A stretch of 42,078 bases of DNA from a virus. Below are positions 12,483-17,825 of the stretch, in pieces (positions within the stretch are counted from its first letter, which is position 1; each line of letters opens with the position of its first letter). The position numbers and the translations under genes were made by a program. Under the pieces are notes generated by a model. That model had not been told where the DNA came from and made no database searches. It saw nothing but the letters and a program-made list of their open reading frames with translations. The stretch is from the IMG/VR virus record IMGVR_UViG_3300030042_000002. One strand, given 5' to 3'.

Positions 12483-13601
12483 ATGTAGCATGTACAATTC
12501 TACCGATCTTGCCTACACAGCTGGTTATATTGACGGAGATGGATGCTTTCACCTTAGAAAACAAGTTTTTAAAGGGAATAAGCGTCCTAAATATTCCGCC
12601 AAACTGATTATTTCTTCTGTTAATCCCGACGTTCTCCATTGGTTTAAGAAAACCTTTGGAGGTGTTGTTCGAGAAGTCAAAAGAAAATCTCTGCCCGACG
12701 GACATAAACGTCAGTACCATTTTATATTTGATAATAAGTCTTTCAAAGATTTTTCTACCGAGTTGACCAATATTTATTTGGTTGAGAAACGTGTAGAATC
12801 TGCTTGGTTTAGTAATTTTCTTTGCTGCAAATTTATTGAGGACAAAGAAAGTTGTATTGATGAACTTCAAAAAGAAAAGCATAAATTTGGTCTTGTACTG
12901 CCTTCTCAAAAGATAGAATTTGAAGATAGGAGAAACACTATCAAATTTACCGAATTGGATCTTGCCTACCTTGCTGGTTTTATTGATGCTGAATGCTGTC
13001 TCGGCATTCAACGTTACAAACCAAAAAAAAGACCTAATCACACTTATAAAATTCAACTTCAATGCAATAATACTAAATATCCATTCTTTAAATGGGCTCT
13101 TGAAAGATTTGGAGGGCAAATTCACTTTATAGAAAGACAAAAATCTATGGGACAAAGAGATCAACTTTGCTGGCGTCTCTCTGCTAAAGCTCTTCTGCCA
13201 ATTCTTAAAGGAATTCAACCTTATATCAAACATAAACTTCCAGTTTGTGAGGAACTTATTAAATTCTACAAAACAACTGTTCCTCTCAAAAATACGATAA
13301 GTAGAAATAGTCCGCATTTCGCAGAATATTACCGTCCTATCCTTGAAGAGAGAGAGAGCATTTTTCATAAAATCCAAATCCTAAACAAAAAAGGTATTTA
13401 ATTTAAGCGGGTCGGTCTTCTCAGCCGACCTCTCTATGTTTCCATAGAGTCTAGAGCACCGCATCACACTTTCGTGTGTCTTTCCGCTTGCTACGTTCAC
13501 GCTGCAAGAGCATATTGCTCAGCTTGCGCCTTGTTGTCTTCACCATTACGTGGTAAGAGTTTCAAGTCCATCAGGAAAGATTTTACAACGGCAATAAGTC
13601 T
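12458..13601 (-). mobile_element. Group I-like intron 2 of the capsid gene (1144 nt), carrying an antisense LAGLIDADG gene
   Basis: IGS GCCGUU (13592-13587) pairs with the exon 2 end AACGGU. ACUUAUU pairs with exon 3 AAUAAGU. GAAA-capped hairpins lie at 13432-13449 and 13465-13478. The core is shared with intron 1, and the intron ends UUAAG. Confidence 0.65.
12490..13401 (+). CDS. Double-motif LAGLIDADG homing endonuclease
   Basis: 303 aa with LAYTAGYIDGDGCF near the N-terminus and LAYLAGFIDAECCL mid-protein. Confidence 0.85.
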   Translation: MYNSTDLAYTAGYIDGDGCFHLRKQVFKGNKRPKYSAKLIISSVNPDVLHWFKKTFGGVVREVKRKSLPDGHKRQYHFIFDNKSFKDFSTELTNIYLVEKRVESAWFSNFLCCKFIEDKESCIDELQKEKHKFGLVLPSQKIEFEDRRNTIKFTELDLAYLAGFIDAECCLGIQRYKPKKRPNHTYKIQLQCNNTKYPFFKWALERFGGQIHFIERQKSMGQRDQLCWRLSAKALLPILKGIQPYIKHKLPVCEELIKFYKTTVPLKNTISRNSPHFAEYYRPILEERESIFHKIQILNKKGI

Positions 13602-14442: not shown

Positions 14443-15105
14443 ATGGCACCAAAAAAAACACATGGAATGTCTTATACAGAAGAATACGCATGTTGGAGAT
14501 CTTTGAAAAATAGATGTCTTAATGCAAAAAACGCCCAGTATAAAGATTATGGAGGCCGAGGTATTACAATTTGTGAAAGATGGTTAAAATTTGAGAATTT
14601 CTTCGAGGATATGGGTAATCGTCCTAAAGATTGTGAAATTGATCGCATCAATAATGAACAGGGTTATTGCAAAGAAAATTGTCGATGGACAACTAAAAAG
14701 GTGAATGCTCGAAATAGGCGTTCTACTAAAAAACACAAAGTTGACACAAGTGAACTTGTTCAACAAGAACTTTTGGAAAAGATAGGCTGGACAAAGAATC
14801 AATTCCGATGGTTTTTTAAACGTTATGGCATTGAATGGATATTAGACAATTTTAAAAAGGGAACATTGCCAGAAAAATCAAACATTTCAGTAGATAAAGA
14901 TGAGGTTATAGGAAAACAGTTTGGTAAATGGTTTGTGTTAAACTTTATTTCCTACATTCGAGGTGAAGGTAATAGATATTTATGTCGTTGTGAATGCGGT
15001 TTTGAAAAGGAAGTTGTGGGCTATTATTTGCGATCAGGAAAAAGTACAGGATGCCGTCGATGTGCATATAAGAACCAGGTAAATAAACCCATGCCAAAGA
15101 AGTAA
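14443..15105 (+). CDS. Phage DNA-binding / homing-endonuclease-like protein (YGGRGI...CERW...DRINN...NCRW family) with a C-terminal Cys4 ribbon
   Basis: 220 aa. Motifs YACWRSLKNRC, YGGRGITICERW, IDRINNEQGYCKENCRWTT, CRCECG...CRRC. Confidence 0.6.
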   Translation: MAPKKTHGMSYTEEYACWRSLKNRCLNAKNAQYKDYGGRGITICERWLKFENFFEDMGNRPKDCEIDRINNEQGYCKENCRWTTKKVNARNRRSTKKHKVDTSELVQQELLEKIGWTKNQFRWFFKRYGIEWILDNFKKGTLPEKSNISVDKDEVIGKQFGKWFVLNFISYIRGEGNRYLCRCECGFEKEVVGYYLRSGKSTGCRRCAYKNQVNKPMPKK

Positions 15106-15130
15106 TCTACTATCAACACATTTCTTTTCT

Positions 15131-15158
15131 TTAACATAAAGTTATAAAATGTTATCAT
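15131..15158 (+). promoter_or_regulatory. Candidate promoter for the Y-RNA array
   Basis: TTAACA, 16-nt spacer, TATCAT, ending 13 nt before module 1. Confidence 0.3.
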
Positions 15159-15171
15159 CTTCACTTAGCTT

Positions 15172-15306
15172 GCTTGCCGTAGATAAGAGTTACTTCGACT
15201 TGTAATCGAGCGGTCATTGGTTCGAGTCCAATATAATGCAGGGTTAGTCCTTGGATTGTTAGCTCAGTTGGTAGAGCGCTAAATTTCTCTTGTCGTTTGT
15301 TGCAGT
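15172..15306 (+). ncRNA. Y-RNA-like module 1 (YrlA-like, with tRNA-like domain)
   Basis: Lower stem GCT[T]GC/GCAGT and helix GATAAGAG/CTCTTGTC. T-arm at 15216-15232 (loop TTCGAGT), a closed hairpin, then D-arm GCTC-AGTTGGTA-GAGC at 15262-15277. Confidence 0.65.
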
Positions 15307-15320
15307 AAGTTAACTTGTTT

Positions 15321-15424
15321 TGCTTGGCGTAGAATTGAGATACTTGGTGACATTGCTGTAAAAGGCAATGTCGGTTCGAATCCGATAGCCCGAAAGGGTG
15401 AAACTCAATTCGTTTGTTCCTGCA
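15321..15424 (+). ncRNA. Y-RNA-like module 2 (partial tRNA mimic)
   Basis: Helix GAATTGAG/CTCAATTC. An 8-bp hairpin GACATTGC/GCAATGTC, a T-arm at 15370-15386 (TTCGAAT) and a GAAA-capped hairpin at 15388-15399. No D-arm. Confidence 0.55.
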
Positions 15425-15430
15425 TATTAT

Positions 15431-15503
15431 CGCGCGATAGAGCAGTGGTTAGCTCATTTGGCTCATAATCAAAAGGTCGAAGGTTCGAATCCTTCTCGCG
15501 CTA
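15431..15503 (+). tRNA. tRNA with CAT anticodon (Met or Ile2), embedded in the Y-RNA array
   Basis: Cloverleaf with D-arm GAGC/GCTC, anticodon loop CTCATAA and T-arm GAAGG-TTCGAAT-CCTTC. The acceptor has a C1-U72 mismatch. No encoded CCA. Confidence 0.8.
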
Positions 15504-15508
15504 TTTGT

Positions 15509-15623
15509 CCTTGCCGTAGTTGAGGGTTACTTTGAGTAACATCATATATAAGTTCGAATCTTATTAGATTCTTCGGAATCTATAGGCTAATTGGTAAGCC
15601 AGCCCCTTAATGATTGTTGCAGG
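15509..15623 (+). ncRNA. Y-RNA-like module 3 (YrlA-like, with tRNA-like domain)
   Basis: Lower stem CCT[T]GC/GCAGG and helix GTTGAGGG/CCCTTAAT. T-arm at 15548-15564, a 7-bp UUCG-capped hairpin at 15565-15582 and a D-arm at 15585-15600. Confidence 0.65.
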
Positions 15624-15634
15624 ACTTTTACTTT

Positions 15635-15752
15635 GTCCGTGTTGGATGATGACGGTTACTTAGTGGTGACTTTCAGTTACCGAGTGCAAGCCTAAAGCTT
15701 GCACCTCGCGCCATATGCGAGGTCTAATACCCGTTATTAAATGTTACCGGAC
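15635..15752 (+). ncRNA. Y-RNA-like module 4 (no tRNA mimic)
   Basis: Lower stem GTCCG/CGGAC and helix GATGACGG/CCGTTATT. The interior folds into three unrelated hairpins. Confidence 0.5.
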
Positions 15753-15761
15753 TTTTGTTTT

Positions 15762-15890
15762 GCCTATGTTGTAGATAAGAGTTACTTAGCTTGCAAAGCC
15801 CCGGATCATGGGTTCAAATCCCATCGCCCTTTCGAGGGTGTAGCTTAGTGTTTAAAGCGGGGACCGTTCTCTTATCGTTTGTTACTAGGC
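15762..15890 (+). ncRNA. Y-RNA-like module 5 (YrlA-like, with tRNA-like domain)
   Basis: Lower stem GCCTA/TAGGC and helix GATAAGAG/CTCTTATC. T-arm at 15808-15824, a UUCG-capped hairpin at 15825-15840 and a D-arm at 15843-15858. Closing helix CCCC/GGGG. Confidence 0.65.
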
Positions 15891-15904
15891 TTTTTGTTTC
15901 TTAA

Positions 15905-15970
15905 CCTTAGTGTAGATTGCAGTTACTTTGATTTGCATTCAAAAACATACCTGCGATCGTTTGTTCTAGG
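15905..15970 (+). ncRNA. Y-RNA-like module 6 (minimal stem module overlapping the rsr ribosome-binding site)
   Basis: Lower stem CCT[T]AG/CTAGG and helix GATTGCAG/CTGCGATC with a simple loop. The 3' strand CTAGG overlaps the SD AGGTGA of the Ro60 gene. Confidence 0.5.
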
Positions 15971-15977
15971 TGATTTT

Positions 15978-17312
15978 ATGAAAGTTAATGTTCAAAAGAG
16001 TGTTTTCACTCATCAAGGCGGAAAGGCTGTAGAAGTCAACGCCTACGAGCGCTTAAAGCGTACTATCATGGCTTGCATGCTTTTTGAAGATAATTTTTAC
16101 GAGGAAGGCGTTAAGGCGGCTGATAGAATTGCAGAATTATCAAAGCAATGTACTACAGATCAAATATGTACTTTAGCCTTAGAAGCCGCCACAAAATATC
16201 ATCTTAGGCATATTCCTTTACAAATGATTGTCGAAGCATTAGCGAAGAGAGATCATGGTAATGGAACACATATTATTTCAAATATAATTAATAAAATCAT
16301 CACTCGCCCTGACATGATGACCGACCTTTTAGCTTTGTATTGGAAATCAGGGAAAAAACCTCTTTCAAATCAACTTAAACGCGGCCTAGCAAAGGCATTT
16401 ACTAAATTCGATGAATACCAGTTATCTAAGTATAACCGTGATAATCCTATCAAATTGCGCGATGTCCTTTTTCTTTGCCACGCCAAACCTAAAGATGCAG
16501 ATCAAGCCGAATTATGGAAGCGCTTAATCAATAAAACGCTTAAGACTGCCGACACTTGGGAAACTCGTTTGTCTGCTGGAGAAGATAAGAAAGAATCGTT
16601 CCAAGAACTGCTTTTTAAAGGTAAAATGGGCAAACTTGCAATTCTTCGCAATATGCGGAATATGCAGCAAGCGGGTATCGCTAAAGAAGCCGTCGCGTTT
16701 GAACTTATGCGTAATATGAAAGAAATGTTACCTTTTCAATATCTTGCCGCTGCTCGAGAATGCCCTCAATGGGAAGATATCATAGATCCTGCAATGGTGG
16801 CTTCTGCTTCGTTTAAACCTAAGATTGAAGGCAAAACATTCATCCTTGTTGATGTATCCGGTAGTATGGTTTATCCTTTATCTGCTAAGTCTACTATGAC
16901 ACGTATGGATGCGGCCGCAGGATTAGCAATCTTACTACGCGAGTGCTGTAATGATTGCGAATTCTACACTTTTAGTGAAAGATTTGTGCCAATTCCTAAG
17001 CGTCACGGAATGGGATTACGTGATGTAATTAAATCATCTCAACCTAATCAAGGTACATATTTAGGCAATGCACTTAATCACATCATCAAATCAGGTGCTA
17101 AGTGGGATCGTCTTATCGTCATTACCGATGAACAGACAGCCGACAACATTCCTAATATGCCCATGGGTAAAAATTACATCCTTAACATTGGCAACTATCA
17201 AAATGGCATTGGAAATAAGAACCAATGGACGACTATTTCAGGGTTTAGTGAGGCATCAATAGATTTTATCAGGGAATATGAAGCAAGCACAGAAGCCAAA
17301 AAAGAAGATTAA
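15978..17312 (+). CDS. rsr: Ro60/Rsr orthologue (TROVE domain + vWA domain)
   Basis: MKVNVQKSVFTHQGGKAVEV start after the SD AGGTGA. TROVE-like motifs (KYNRDNPIKLRDVLFLCHAKP, ADTWETRLS, LAILRNMRNM) and a vWA MIDAS motif ILVDVSGSM. The track's TTG extension to 15879 overlaps the RNA modules and was not used. Confidence 0.85.
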   Translation: MKVNVQKSVFTHQGGKAVEVNAYERLKRTIMACMLFEDNFYEEGVKAADRIAELSKQCTTDQICTLALEAATKYHLRHIPLQMIVEALAKRDHGNGTHIISNIINKIITRPDMMTDLLALYWKSGKKPLSNQLKRGLAKAFTKFDEYQLSKYNRDNPIKLRDVLFLCHAKPKDADQAELWKRLINKTLKTADTWETRLSAGEDKKESFQELLFKGKMGKLAILRNMRNMQQAGIAKEAVAFELMRNMKEMLPFQYLAAARECPQWEDIIDPAMVASASFKPKIEGKTFILVDVSGSMVYPLSAKSTMTRMDAAAGLAILLRECCNDCEFYTFSERFVPIPKRHGMGLRDVIKSSQPNQGTYLGNALNHIIKSGAKWDRLIVITDEQTADNIPNMPMGKNYILNIGNYQNGIGNKNQWTTISGFSEASIDFIREYEASTEAKKED

Positions 17313-17730
17313 TCTCCCTGCCGATACTGAAGGATTACCAGTTGCACCATTGGGTCTTAAAGAAAGAAAAGCCGATATTACCTCGGAAATTAAACTCTTT
17401 CTGCAAGAACCAATTACACTTGAATCGATAAAATATATTCTTTTACGTCTTTCTGGTCCTATCACTCACTATAAATATATTAAATCTAAAGTTGCCATAG
17501 CTGCCCTAAAATCAAGAATATCAACTTATGATAAATATGATTTCATAGTTGCTGTAGAGATTGGTGATTATACATATAAATATTATGTAGATAGTATGGA
17601 ATTTTACAAATTAGGTTGGTTTTCGCAAAAGGATTTAGGAAAGTCTTCTTTAAAGAAGGAACTTGGCTGGATTATTTTTCGGTGGCTTAGTAGTAATTTA
17701 GAAAAATGTCAAATCATAGAGGCAAAATGA
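17278..17730 (+). CDS. Hypothetical protein coupled to rsr
   Basis: 150-aa ORF overlapping the rsr 3' end by 35 nt. No motif recognised. Confidence 0.5.
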   Translation: MKQAQKPKKKINLPADTEGLPVAPLGLKERKADITSEIKLFLQEPITLESIKYILLRLSGPITHYKYIKSKVAIAALKSRISTYDKYDFIVAVEIGDYTYKYYVDSMEFYKLGWFSQKDLGKSSLKKELGWIIFRWLSSNLEKCQIIEAK

Positions 17731-17749: not shown

Positions 17750-17822
17750 GCCCGTTTAACTCAGTGGCTAGAGTAGTGGTTTTGTAAACCAAAGGTCAGG
17801 GGTTCGAATCCCTTAACGGGCA
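17750..17822 (+). tRNA. tRNA-Thr (TGT)
   Basis: Acceptor GCCCGTT/AACGGGC, anticodon loop TTTGTAA, T-arm AGGGG-TTCGAAT-CCCTT. Confidence 0.85.
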
Positions 17823-17825
17823 TAT

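What the first reader, a model, noticed from the sequence alone, without database searches (positions are those of the whole stretch)
15131..17312. Phage Ro60/Rsr gene preceded by a six-member tandem array of Y-RNA-like modules
**Protein.** The ORF at 15978-17312 has TROVE-type motifs and a vWA MIDAS motif (DVSGSM), which is the Ro60/Rsr architecture.

**Shared frame of the six upstream units (15172-15970).**
- All have a 5' motif TTGCCGTAG-N-GAGTTACTT and a 3' motif (T)CGTTTGTT.
- A short lower stem is present, often with a bulged T: CCT[T]GC/GCAGG, CCT[T]AG/CTAGG, GCT[T]GC/GCAGT. The other lower stems are GTCCG/CGGAC and GCCTA/TAGGC.
- An 8-bp upper helix covaries between units: GATAAGAG/CTCTTGTC, GAATTGAG/CTCAATTC, GTTGAGGG/CCCTTAAT, GATGACGG/CCGTTATT, GATAAGAG/CTCTTATC, GATTGCAG/CTGCGATC.

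**Interior of the units.**
- Units 1, 3 and 5 contain a canonical T-arm, then an acceptor-like hairpin closed by a loop (UUCG in two of them), then a canonical D-arm. This is the permuted tRNA-like order described for bacterial YrlA RNAs.
- Unit 2 is a partial mimic, unit 4 has unrelated hairpins, and unit 6 is a bare stem.

**Context.** Rsr/Y-RNA pairs are known in bacteria and in some phages. A six-unit array with three architectural classes and an embedded tRNA is unusual. It suggests the phage supplies a diversified set of Ro60 adaptor RNAs.
Basis: partly seen in the sequence, partly recalled or inferred. Interest (0 to 1): 0.85.

Follow-up and report, generated by a model that had tools for sequence, protein, structure and literature searches.

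The report
Phage Ro60 gene with Y-RNA array
An uncultivated 42-kb phage carries a Ro60 RNA-binding ring protein preceded by six head-to-tail small-RNA genes that share one docking stem but carry different "heads". Arrays of this kind turn out to be common but unannotated in related phages, including cultured ones.

Summary
**Observation:** confirmed.
- ORF 15978-17312 is a full-length Ro60. It has TROVE and Ro60-type vWA domains and an invariant MIDAS motif. Its AlphaFold model matches all solved Ro60 rings.
- The 0.8 kb upstream holds six tandem modules and one tRNA-Met(CAU).

**The shared frame:** each module has a 5-7 bp lower stem with a bulged U, a 4x7 internal loop, an 8-bp helix and then UUACUU.

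**Evidence that the frame is real:**
- In related phages it shows strong compensatory change: 97.8% of cells paired, 11 of 14 pairs covary, 0 of 500 shuffles match.
- A covariance model built from the leader-type module recovers U1, U2, U3 and U5 in the window. It hits only the Ro60-sense strand next to Ro60 genes elsewhere.

**Heads:**
- U1, U3 and U5 are circularly permuted tRNA mimics (YrlA-like).
- U2 is a conserved T-arm class.
- U4 is a conserved three-hairpin class, not random hairpins.
- U6 is headless, and its stem overlaps the Ro60 ribosome-binding site.

**How unusual:** arrays of 3-5 modules are normal in relatives and occur in Xanthomonas phage Olaya. Six is only the upper end. 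Rfam's YrlA model misses all of them.

**Verdict:** a new variant of the known Ro60/Y-RNA system. Binding, processing and function are inferred, not shown.

The parts
15131..15158 (+). Promoter-like site TTAACA-16 nt-TATCAT, with TG two bases upstream of the -10 hexamer (extended -10). It ends 13 nt before U1.
   Evidence: This is the best sigma-70-type match in 14.4-18.4 kb, at 10 of 12. A -10-like TAYNAT/TATAGT hexamer lies 5-13 nt before the first module in most close relatives. Several of these have TG two bases upstream, giving TGnTAYnAT. Promoter activity was not tested.
15172..15306 (+). U1: a Y-RNA-like module with a YrlA-type head. In order: anticodon-like 'V' arm, T-arm, closed acceptor hairpin, D-arm.
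   Evidence: Rfam YrlA 28.0 bits, E = 1.2e-3, below the gathering score of 69. R1 model 24.6 bits, E = 2.8e-3. ARAGORN calls it a tRNA after un-permuting. The orthologue alignment has 27 pairs, 18 of them compensatory.
15321..15424 (+). U2: a module whose head is a hairpin, a T-arm (GGUUCGAAUCC) and a GAAA-capped hairpin, with no D-arm.
   Evidence: R1 35.4 bits, E = 7e-6. In 11 orthologues there are 24 pairs, 22 of them compensatory, and the T-loop is invariant.
15430..15504 (+). Genuine tRNA-Met (anticodon CAU) embedded in the array.
   Evidence: Found by ARAGORN. Rfam tRNA 65.9 bits. A tRNA-Met sits at the same place in the closest relative, L016.
15507..15625 (+). U3: a module with a permuted tRNA-like head. 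In order: T-arm, 7-bp acceptor hairpin with a UUCG loop, D-arm. It has no V arm and is absent from the closest relative.
   Evidence: R1 37.1 bits, E = 3e-6. ARAGORN calls it a tRNA after un-permuting. There is no Rfam YrlA hit even at E <= 10. L016 lacks it.
15635..15752 (+). U4: a module with a divergent frame (3' loop AAAUGUU) and a conserved three-hairpin head. The central hairpin has a CUAAA loop.
   Evidence: R1 gives only 10.8 bits. Eight orthologues show 38 pairs, 22 compensatory, 93% paired, 0 of 500 shuffles as good, and slid controls at 32-39%. Single-sequence z-score is -5.3.
15762..15890 (+). U5: a module with a canonical YrlA-type head. In order: 4-bp closing stem, T-arm, 6-bp acceptor hairpin with a UUCG loop, D-arm.
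   Evidence: Rfam YrlA 29.3 bits, E = 4.8e-4, below the gathering score. R1 38.6 bits, E = 1.3e-6. ARAGORN calls it a tRNA after un-permuting.
15904..15971 (+). U6: a headless module with only a small hairpin inside. It forms the Ro60 mRNA leader. Its 3' lower-stem strand CUAGGU (15966-15971) overlaps the Shine-Dalgarno sequence AGGUGA (15968-15973).
   Evidence: The syntenic alignment of 13 loci gives 14 pairs, 11 compensatory, 97.8% paired and 0 of 500 shuffles as good. R1 scores 90.4 bits, but U6 is a training member of that model.
15978..17312 (+). Ro60/Rsr orthologue: TROVE HEAT-repeat ring plus vWA domain with a MIDAS motif. 444 aa.
   Evidence: Pfam domains. PDB sequence search best hit 9KOP/9L5Y (phiLo Ro60), E = 4e-24. 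AlphaFold2 model pLDDT 84 and pTM 0.78; Foldseek TM 0.70 to 9KOP, 0.74 to 1YVP, 0.62 to 2NVO. More than 7,800 homologues found.
17750..18059 (+). Downstream tRNA cluster (Thr-UGU, Gln-UUG, Met-CAU, Asp-GUC) on the same strand. It may belong to the same transcription unit.
   Evidence: Found by ARAGORN and Rfam. No terminator-like site occurs before 18370-18385. Co-transcription is inferred.

Best explanation
This is a phage Ro60/Y-RNA operon.

**Transcription and processing (inferred).** One promoter at about 15131-15158 probably drives a polycistronic RNA. It carries six Y-RNA-like modules and a tRNA-Met, then the Ro60 mRNA, and possibly ORF 17278-17730 and four more tRNAs. The precursor would be cut in the 6-15-nt spacers, most of them U-rich, and at the tRNA by RNase P and RNase Z. 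This would release RNAs of about 70-135 nt.

**The constant frame (shown: conservation and covariation; inferred: Ro60 docking).** Every module has the same frame:
- a lower stem with an invariant bulged U;
- an asymmetric internal loop, with 5' G-N-Y-G-W-A-G and 3' G-N-N-U-G-U-U;
- an 8-bp helix;
- single-stranded UUACUU.
By analogy with Xenopus, Deinococcus, Salmonella and phage phiLo Y RNAs, this frame is the docking site for one Ro60 ring.

**The variable heads (shown: structure classes; inferred: function).**
- U1, U3 and U5 carry a circularly permuted tRNA mimic.
- U2 carries a T-arm plus hairpins.
- U4 carries a three-hairpin fold.
- U6 carries nothing.
The heads would act as adaptors that tether Ro60 to different partners. 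Candidates are host PNPase, as in RYPER complexes, and proteins that recognise tRNAs. This would reshape RNA decay or quality control during infection.

**U6 (inferred).** U6 stays on the Ro60 mRNA. Its Ro60-docking stem includes the Shine-Dalgarno sequence. Free Ro60 could therefore repress its own translation and match protein level to Y-RNA level.
For: **Ro60 identity:**

**Frame conservation and covariation**
- The U6-type alignment was built by synteny alone. It shows 97.8% of cells paired and 11 of 14 pairs compensatory. None of 500 shuffles does as well, and slid controls give 29-40%.
- The same lower stem, bulge and 8-bp helix were predicted independently in the U1/U5, U2 and U4 class alignments.

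**Specific linkage to Ro60**
- R1 hits in 12 close loci: 43 of 43 lie on the Ro60 strand and upstream of the gene, 3-5 per locus.
- In 96 more loci, 64 of 64 hits with E <= 0.01 lie on the Ro60 strand.
- There are 0 hits in about 280 kb of viral DNA without Ro60.
- An independent pattern scan gave 184 sense hits, 30 antisense hits and 19 in shuffled sequence. Of the sense hits, 133 lie within 1.5 kb upstream of Ro60.

**tRNA mimicry**
- Rfam YrlA gives full-length subthreshold hits to U1 and U5.
- ARAGORN calls the un-permuted U1, U3 and U5 constructs tRNAs. It does not call the native order.

**Transcription unit**
- The best promoter-like site lies just before U1, and no terminator-like site occurs until 18370.
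- A -10-like element is conserved before the first module in relatives.
- Gene callers left a gene-free gap of about 450-1080 nt upstream of Ro60 in all close loci.

**U6 and the ribosome-binding site:** 8 of 12 distinct close loci place a clear Shine-Dalgarno sequence inside or against the 3' lower-stem strand.

**Precedents**
- YrlA RNAs lie next to rsr in 254 bacteria and 22 phages (PMC4201824).
- Phage phiLo Ro60 binds two upstream Yrl RNAs and forms complexes with host PNPase in vitro (PMC12135203).
Against: - There is no expression, end-mapping or binding data for this phage or its relatives.
- Rfam YrlA never reaches its gathering score, here or in 15 relatives.
- The canonical CGAA / GNCGAAN0-1G motif is absent. 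Three units have CGUA, two have UGUA and one has GGAU.
- U4 barely matches the frame model, at 10.8 bits.
- The U6-SD overlap is missing in L019 and L100 and ambiguous in L105 and L106. It is also absent in distant relatives, where the last module lies more than 100 nt from the start codon.
- Single-sequence folding z-scores are modest for U1, U5 and U6, at -1.7 to -1.9.
- Partner proteins are unknown.
Confidence: 0.75

Rival explanations
1. The array acts mainly in cis. It is a long structured 5' leader of the Ro60 mRNA with multiple Ro60 binding sites. These sites titrate or autoregulate Ro60, or stabilise the mRNA. The array is not a set of processed, trans-acting small RNAs.
For: - There is only one promoter-like site before U1 and no terminator between the modules and Ro60.
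- Spacers are only 6-15 nt.
- U6 abuts the start codon and overlaps the Shine-Dalgarno sequence in most close relatives.
Against: - An embedded genuine tRNA implies RNase P and RNase Z cutting of the transcript.
- Conserved, covarying and elaborate heads, whether tRNA mimics or three-hairpin folds, are unnecessary for simple titration.
- In some relatives the array lies downstream of Ro60 (L131, L010, L015).
- Bacterial Y RNAs co-transcribed with rsr are processed to stable RNAs, according to PMC4201824.
Confidence: 0.1
2. The tRNA-like heads are the functional part. They act as decoys or sponges for host enzymes that recognise tRNAs. Such enzymes include anticodon nucleases of defence systems, modification enzymes, and RNase P or RNase Z. 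Ro60 only protects and stabilises the decoys.
For: - U1, U3 and U5 carry near-canonical T-arms, D-arms and acceptor hairpins.
- The U1-class V arm keeps an anticodon-loop-like CU-NNN-AA loop across relatives.
- The operon is flanked by real tRNAs.
- A Ro60-like protein of phage Bas63 was reported to counter a defence system (PMC11482910).
Against: - The frame is the most conserved part, and it is present in modules without any tRNA-like feature (U4, U6).
- Heads are swapped between orthologous frames, as between window U5 and L016 2813-2918. This argues that no single tRNA-like head is indispensable.
- No defence-system target has been identified.
Confidence: 0.1
3. The units are decayed tRNA genes flanked by generic processing hairpins, for example RNase III-type sites. 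They have no specific relation to Ro60.
For: - The units sit in a tRNA-rich region.
- The Rfam tRNA model gives weak hits inside U1 and across U1-U2.
- Stem, internal loop, stem hairpins are used as RNase III sites in some phages (general knowledge).
Against: - Frame hits occur only beside Ro60 genes and only on their strand, across more than 100 loci with 40-77% protein identity. There are none in 280 kb of control DNA.
- Conserved single-stranded sequence motifs and an invariant bulged U indicate sequence-specific protein recognition.
- The helices of 6 and 8 bp are short for RNase III.
- The heads show purifying selection with compensatory changes.
Confidence: 0.03

Closest known systems
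Bacterial and phage YrlA/YrlB Y RNAs next to rsr (Chen et al. 2014, PMC4201824; Rfam RF02553)
   Same: - They are encoded beside a Ro60 orthologue on the same strand.
- The 5' and 3' ends pair into a stem with an internal loop.
- The head of U1, U3 and U5 has a T-arm, a closed acceptor-like hairpin and a D-arm in permuted order. U1 also has an optional V stem-loop.
- U2 resembles YrlB in carrying a T-arm only.
   Different: - Scores reach only 28-29 bits against a gathering score of 69, and U3 is not detected at all.
- The 5' loop motif is GYGWAG (CGUA or UGUA) rather than GNCGAAN0-1G.
- There is a conserved UUACUU after the upper helix and GNNUGUU on the 3' side.
- There are six modules in one head-to-tail array, against about 1.3 reported per genome (355 RNAs in 276 genomes).
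- There are head classes with no tRNA-like feature (U4, U6).
Thermus phage phiLo Ro60 with Yrl1 and Yrl2 (PMC12135203; PDB 9KOP, 9L5Y)
   Same: - It is a phage-encoded Ro60 with Y-RNA-like genes directly upstream.
- It is the closest solved structure by sequence (E = 4e-24) and by fold (TM 0.70).
- It offers a mechanistic precedent for Ro60-Yrl-PNPase complexes.
   Different: - Protein identity is only 22%.
- phiLo has two Yrl RNAs, defined by a CGAA motif, with one or two hairpins. They are not tRNA mimics.
- No leader-embedded module has been reported there.
Metazoan Y RNAs and Ro60 (Xenopus Ro-Y RNA complex 1YVP)
   Same: - A terminal stem formed by the 5' and 3' ends carries a conserved bulged pyrimidine and is followed by an internal loop and an upper helix.
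- There are several paralogous Y RNAs per genome, with a common Ro-binding stem and variable loops.
- A U-run follows the stem.
   Different: - The bulge is U, not C, and the sequence motifs differ.
- Rfam Y_RNA gave no hit at E <= 10.
- The genes here are tandem and probably co-transcribed with Ro60. They are not dispersed Pol III genes.
Deinococcus radiodurans rsr with upstream Yrn1/Yrn2 and the RYPER complex
   Same: - Several small RNAs are encoded upstream of rsr.
- The Y RNA is modular: a Ro-binding stem plus an effector module that tethers PNPase.
- Yrn1 contains a T-arm-like stem-loop (PMC4201824).
   Different: - The arrangement of tRNA-like elements differs.
- There is no evidence here for PNPase binding.
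- This array is larger and its heads are more diverse.

Membership tests
Ro60 / Rsr (TROVE-vWA ring protein) | TROVE (HEAT-repeat) domain | tested here: met
   Pfam PF05731 scores 47.2 bits against a cut-off of 23.
Ro60 / Rsr (TROVE-vWA ring protein) | C-terminal vWA domain with MIDAS residues (DxSxS ... T ... D) | tested here: met
   Pfam PF25045 vWA_Ro60 scores 36.6 bits against a cut-off of 27.7. D292, S294, S296, T360 and D384 are invariant in 30 homologues.
Ro60 / Rsr (TROVE-vWA ring protein) | Full-length fold similar to solved Ro60 rings | tested here: met
   The AlphaFold2 model has pLDDT 84.4 and pTM 0.78. The top 13 Foldseek PDB hits are all Ro60 chains: 9KOP, 9L5Y, 9NEP, 1YVP, 2I91, 9NF8, 9NFA, 1YVR, 2NVO and 9NEN. 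Their E-values are 5e-20 to 5e-12 and their TMq values are 0.62-0.76.
Ro60 / Rsr (TROVE-vWA ring protein) | Binds Y RNA on the outer surface and RNA 3' ends in the central cavity | not testable with these tools
   This needs EMSA, RIP-seq or a structure.
YrlA (Rfam RF02553) | Score at or above the Rfam gathering threshold (69 bits) | tested here: not met
   U5 scores 29.3 bits and U1 scores 28.0 bits. U3 has no hit at E <= 10. No relative reaches the threshold either.
YrlA (Rfam RF02553) | Encoded within a few kb of a Ro60 orthologue | tested here: met
   The modules lie 7-806 nt upstream of the Ro60 start, on the same strand.
YrlA (Rfam RF02553) | tRNA-like domain in permuted order: T-arm, closed acceptor-like stem-loop, D-arm | tested here: met
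   This holds for U1, U3 and U5. ARAGORN calls tRNAs in the un-permuted constructs and none in the native order. T-arm, D-arm and acceptor base pairs covary in orthologues. It does not hold for U2, U4 or U6.
YrlA (Rfam RF02553) | GNCGAAN0-1G motif in the 5' strand (proposed Rsr contact; PMC4201824) | tested here: not met
   None of the six units has CGAA. U1 and U3 have GCCGUAG and U2 has GGCGUAG, each differing from the motif by a single A-to-U change. U5 and U6 have UGUAG. U4 has UGGAUG. Relatives often have GGUGAAG.
YrlA (Rfam RF02553) | tRNA-type modifications; substrate of RNase P and other tRNA enzymes | not testable with these tools
   This needs biochemistry.
Y RNA (functional class) | 5' and 3' ends pair into a stem that holds the Ro60 site, with a bulged helix and an internal loop | tested here: met
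   The lower stem with its invariant bulged U, the 4x7 loop and the 8-bp helix are supported by compensatory changes in four independent class alignments.
Y RNA (functional class) | Discrete RNA of about 80-130 nt, stably bound by Ro60 in vivo | not testable with these tools
   The predicted module sizes of 68-135 nt fit. The RNA ends and Ro60 binding are unknown.

The most novel reading that the evidence does not exclude
This phage lineage may have turned the Y RNA into a cassette system with three features.
- A constant Ro60-docking frame carries interchangeable heads. Orthologous frames in close relatives carry unrelated heads.
- One head is a previously undescribed three-hairpin class (U4 type) that presumably recruits a partner other than tRNA-binding proteins.
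- A headless copy sits in the Ro60 leader and sequesters the ribosome-binding site. Ro60 would then autoregulate its own synthesis against the pool of its own Y RNAs.
Together these would let a 42-kb phage retarget one RNA-binding ring, and through it host exonucleases, to several RNA or protein targets during infection.
Probability: 0.3. Interest if true: 0.75.

Novelty: new variant of a known kind. Interest (0 to 1): 0.6.

Why it matters
What Ro60 and Y RNAs do in bacteria and phages is still largely unknown. Only a handful of Y RNAs have been studied experimentally.

This locus and its roughly 100 relatives add the following:
- A sequence-defined, covariation-supported Ro60-linked frame. 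Current Rfam models miss it, so these RNAs go unannotated.
- Tandem arrays of 3-6 modules, which are normal in a large group of phages.
- At least four conserved head architectures, one of which has no tRNA-like feature.
- Apparent head swapping on constant frames.
- A possible autoregulatory Y-like element in the Ro60 leader.

The same frame occurs in cultured phages: Xanthomonas phage Olaya and its relatives, and Caulobacter phage CcrColossus. That makes it directly testable which partners the different heads recruit and what Ro60 does for a phage.

Tried and rejected
- **Rfam at gathering thresholds:** only tRNAs were found in the window and in 15 relatives. YrlA appears only below threshold, and Y_RNA (RF00019) not at all at E <= 10.
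- **NCBIfam on the ORF:** no family.
- **Megablast of the locus against 50,697 phage records:** no match. The portal protein has only 23%-identity partial hits, so there is no close cultured relative of the whole phage.
- **Motif-only scan of viral contigs (TGGTGWAGN6GGTTACTT):** 35 hits, about what I estimate for chance. Only the 3 loci that also encode Ro60 had real modules. The short 5' motif alone is not diagnostic, but the scan served as a negative control for the covariance model.
- **Protein-pattern scan of viral contigs:** only 15 distant loci. Closer relatives had to be fetched one at a time.
- **Two Wolin-lab reviews:** PMC10870794 and PMC6047535 are not held. The supplementary tables of Chen et al. 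2014 are not held either. I could not check how many YrlA RNAs per phage were listed there.
- **Rejected: the units encode peptides.** There is no ORF of 60 aa or more in 15106-15977, apart from a TTG-extended reading of Ro60. Gene callers left this gap empty in all relatives.
- **Rejected: U4 is a chance hairpin cluster**.
- **Rejected: separate promoters for each module.** The spacers are 6-15 nt and only one promoter-like site was found.
- **Not followed:** pairing partners or a function for the invariant UUACUU. By eye I found no complement for it in U6.

Full report
**1. What is in the sequence**

The window is a phage genome or a large part of one. It encodes a portal protein, a large terminase, a helicase and an HNH endonuclease. 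Related contigs are 38-42 kb. The portal has only remote cultured relatives, and the locus has no near DNA match among 50,697 phage records.

ORF 15978-17312 starts at an ATG that aligns with the MKxNV start of all homologues. It hits Pfam TROVE at 47.2 bits and the Ro60-specific vWA domain at 36.6 bits, both above the curated cut-offs. The MIDAS residues D292, S294, S296, T360 and D384 are invariant in 30 homologues.

The closest solved protein by sequence is the Ro60 of Thermus phage phiLo (9KOP/9L5Y, E = 4e-24). An AlphaFold2 model (pLDDT 84, pTM 0.78) has Ro60 chains as its 13 best PDB matches. These come from phage, Xenopus, human and Deinococcus, with TM 0.62-0.76. The protein part of the finding is confirmed.

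**2. The six units**

The 870 nt between the HNH gene and Ro60 contain no ORF of 60 aa or more, apart from a TTG-extended reading of Ro60. They contain one genuine tRNA-Met(CAU) at 15430-15504.

The six modules are U1 15172-15306, U2 15321-15424, U3 15507-15625, U4 15635-15752, U5 15762-15890 and U6 15904-15971.

Each module has the following parts, 5' to 3':
- a 5-7-bp lower stem interrupted by a bulged U two base pairs below the loop;
- a 5' loop strand of 4 nt (5 nt in U4): CGUA, UGUA or, in U4, UGGAU;
- an 8-bp helix that pairs 8 of 8 in all six units although its sequence differs;
- single-stranded UUACUU (AUACUU in U2);
- the head;
- the 3' helix strand;
- the 7-nt 3' loop strand GNNUGUU (AAAUGUU in U4);
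- the 3' lower-stem strand, followed by a spacer of 6-15 nt. Most spacers are U-rich, but the one between U1 and U2 begins AAGUUAAC.

**3. Is the frame real?**

Single-sequence thermodynamics are only modest, with z-scores from -1.7 to -5.3. I therefore used relatives. The Ro60 protein has thousands of homologues. I fetched 13 loci with 54-77% identity and about 95 with 39-57% identity.

*Synteny test.* I took the roughly 85 nt upstream of the Ro60 start codon in 11 close loci, together with the displaced leader-type modules of L100 and L019. Selection was by position only and took no account of pairing. MAFFT and RNAalifold then returned exactly the proposed lower stem, bulge and 8-bp helix, with 11 of 14 pairs showing compensatory changes. 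On that alignment 97.8% of cells pair, against 73.6% in column shuffles (0 of 500 as good) and 29-40% when partners are slid by 1-3 columns.

*Covariance-model test.* Model R1 was built from this alignment. It contains U6 but none of U1-U5.
- In the window it finds U5 (38.6 bits, E = 1e-6), U3 (37.1), U2 (35.4) and U1 (24.6, E = 3e-3). Nothing else in 42 kb scores better than E = 0.3. U4 scores only 10.8 bits.
- In the 12 close loci, all 43 hits are on the Ro60 strand and upstream of the gene, head to tail, 3-5 per locus.
- In 96 further loci, all 64 hits with E <= 0.01 are on the Ro60 strand.
- In 32 viral loci without Ro60 (about 280 kb) there is no hit. The 3 loci in that set that do encode Ro60 have 7 hits.

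*Independent pattern scan.* This gave 184 sense hits, 30 antisense hits and 19 in shuffled sequence. Of the sense hits, 133 lie within 1.5 kb upstream of Ro60.

The frame is therefore a genuine structured RNA element that is linked specifically to Ro60 genes.

**4. The heads**

*U1, U3 and U5.* Each contains a T-arm with a GUUCRANUC loop, then a hairpin of 6-11 bp, then UA and a D-arm.
- I opened the hairpin loop and capped the closing helix with an artificial anticodon loop. For U1 I also tried its own V arm. ARAGORN then calls all constructs tRNAs at default settings, and it calls nothing in the native order. The constructs were designed by eye, so this shows compatibility with a permuted cloverleaf, not identity with one.
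- Rfam YrlA aligns full-length to U5 (29.3 bits) and U1 (28.0 bits). Both are far below its gathering score of 69, and U3 is not detected.
- Orthologues of the U1/U5 class show 18 of 27 pairs with compensatory changes, including pairs in the T-arm and the acceptor base.

*U2.* U2 belongs to a class present in at least 11 loci. The head is a variable hairpin, a T-arm with an invariant loop and a second hairpin, with no D-arm. Of 24 pairs, 22 are compensatory.

*U4.* U4 belongs to a class present in at least 8 loci.
- It has three hairpins inside a short UUAG/CUAA helix.
- All 8 pairs of the central hairpin covary, and its CUAAA loop is kept in six of the eight orthologues.
- Overall 93% of cells pair, 22 of 38 pairs are compensatory and 0 of 500 shuffles do as well.
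- No Rfam family matches it.

*U6.* U6 has only a small hairpin inside the frame.

*Order and exchange.* The classes keep their order across close relatives, but heads can be exchanged. Window U5 and L016 2813-2918 have almost identical frames and unrelated heads. U3 is missing from the closest relative. That relative instead has tRNA-Val and tRNA-Met inside a five-module array.

**5. Transcription and the Ro60 leader**

The best promoter-like site in 4 kb, TTAACA-16 nt-TATCAT with an extended-10 TG, ends 13 nt before U1. No terminator-like site occurs until 18370, beyond Ro60, ORF 17278-17730 and four tRNAs. A -10-like hexamer lies 5-13 nt before the first module in most close relatives. Several of these have an extended-10 TG, giving TGnTAYnAT. 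The spacers are too short for internal promoters. Co-transcription followed by processing is the simplest reading, but it is inferred.

In 8 of 12 distinct close loci, the 3' lower-stem strand of the last module (CUAGG...) is part of, or abuts, a clear Shine-Dalgarno sequence 4-7 nt before the ATG. Examples are CUAGGUGAUUUUAUG, CUAGGAG and CCCGGAG. Two loci are ambiguous and two are exceptions. If the frame binds Ro60, then Ro60 binding here would occlude the ribosome-binding site. This autoregulation idea is an inference and has no precedent that I know of.

**6. Comparison with what is known**

- Chen et al. 2014 reported 355 YrlA RNAs next to Ro60 in 254 bacteria and 22 phages. They described the T/AS/D/V architecture and a GNCGAAN0-1G motif (PMC4201824).
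- Phage phiLo Ro60 binds two upstream Yrl RNAs and forms complexes with host PNPase in vitro (PMC12135203).
- Other reports only suspect Y RNAs near phage Ro60-like genes (PMC12282133 and PMC11482910).

The present locus is the same kind of system, but it differs in several ways:
- Rfam does not recognise its modules.
- Its loop motif is a variant: CGUA or UGWA instead of CGAA.
- It has extra conserved elements: UUACUU, GNNUGUU and an invariant bulged U.
- It is organised as a head-to-tail array.
- It includes head classes without tRNA features.

The array as such is not unique to this window.
- Relatives have 3-5 modules.
- Xanthomonas phage Olaya has 4-5 modules in an unannotated 700-nt gap before a 'hypothetical protein' that is its Ro60.
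- Caulobacter phage CcrColossus has 3 confident and 4 weaker hits before its TROVE gene. One of the weaker hits overlaps an annotated tRNA-Gln.
- Six modules was the largest confident number among about 110 loci examined. The detectors are imperfect and this is a sample, not a census.

**7. Verdict**

The array is typical of this group of phages rather than exceptional. U4 is a conserved class. U6 is a leader element.

I rate the finding a new variant of a known kind. Ro60 binding, RNA processing, partner recruitment and autoregulation are all inferred and need the experiments listed under next steps.

Noticed in passing
window 12490-13401 (+) and 14443-15105 (+): Two homing-endonuclease-like ORFs lie immediately upstream of the array. 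One is LAGLIDADG (Pfam 34.5 bits) and the other is HNH (PHROG 374). The closest relative L016 has neither gene between the structural genes and its array, so these look like mobile insertions next to the RNA locus.
   Followed up: partly
window 17278-17730 (+) and 17750-18059 (+): A 150-aa ORF overlaps the 3' end of Ro60 by 35 nt and matches no Pfam or PHROG family. Four tRNAs follow on the same strand (Thr-UGU, Gln-UUG, a second Met-CAU, Asp-GUC). The first terminator-like site is at 18370-18385. They may belong to the same operon as the array.
   Followed up: partly
window 15762-15890 versus L016 2813-2918: These frames are orthologous and nearly identical (ttttgcctatgYtgta GATAAGAG ttacttagctt ... 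gctaggcttttt). Their heads are unrelated: a permuted tRNA mimic in the window and two plain hairpins in L016. This suggests cassette-like head replacement.
   Followed up: partly
window 15196-15210 (U1 V arm) and its orthologues in L001, L016, L017, L100, L103, L104, L107: The hairpin before the T-arm keeps an anticodon-loop-like 7-nt loop of the form CU-NNN-AA. The middle triplet is UGU, GUU or GAU in different relatives. ARAGORN even calls L001 2559-2627 a tRNA-Thr. The U1 class thus mimics all four tRNA arms.
   Followed up: partly
L014 2207-2302: This Y-type frame has a head that matches the Rfam tRNA model at 45.9 bits (model positions 4-67, locus 2216-2281). It is a non-permuted tRNA-like head, an architecture different from YrlA.
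   Followed up: no
L108 (Xanthomonas phage Olaya, MW802488) 1813-2429; L109 (Caulobacter phage CcrColossus, JX100810) 1219-2408: Two cultured phages carry unannotated head-to-tail arrays of the same frame upstream of their Ro60 genes. In Olaya the Ro60 gene is annotated only as a hypothetical protein. In CcrColossus one weak hit overlaps the annotated tRNA-Gln.
   Followed up: partly
L131 6138-6565 (-), L010 5577-5724, L015 4355-4526: In some distant relatives the modules lie downstream of Ro60 on the same strand instead of upstream. This resembles the Salmonella rsr-yrlBA order.
   Followed up: no
window 38859-38940 (+): A weak hit of the frame model (16 bits, E = 0.32) lies far from Ro60 and has several non-canonical pairs. 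It is probably chance.
   Followed up: no
window 15430-15504: The first acceptor pair of the embedded tRNA-Met(CAU) is a C1-U72 mismatch. The anticodon stem lacks the three G-C pairs typical of initiator tRNAs. A second tRNA with a CAU anticodon lies at 17911-17984. It was not resolved which of the two is elongator Met, initiator or Ile2.
   Followed up: no
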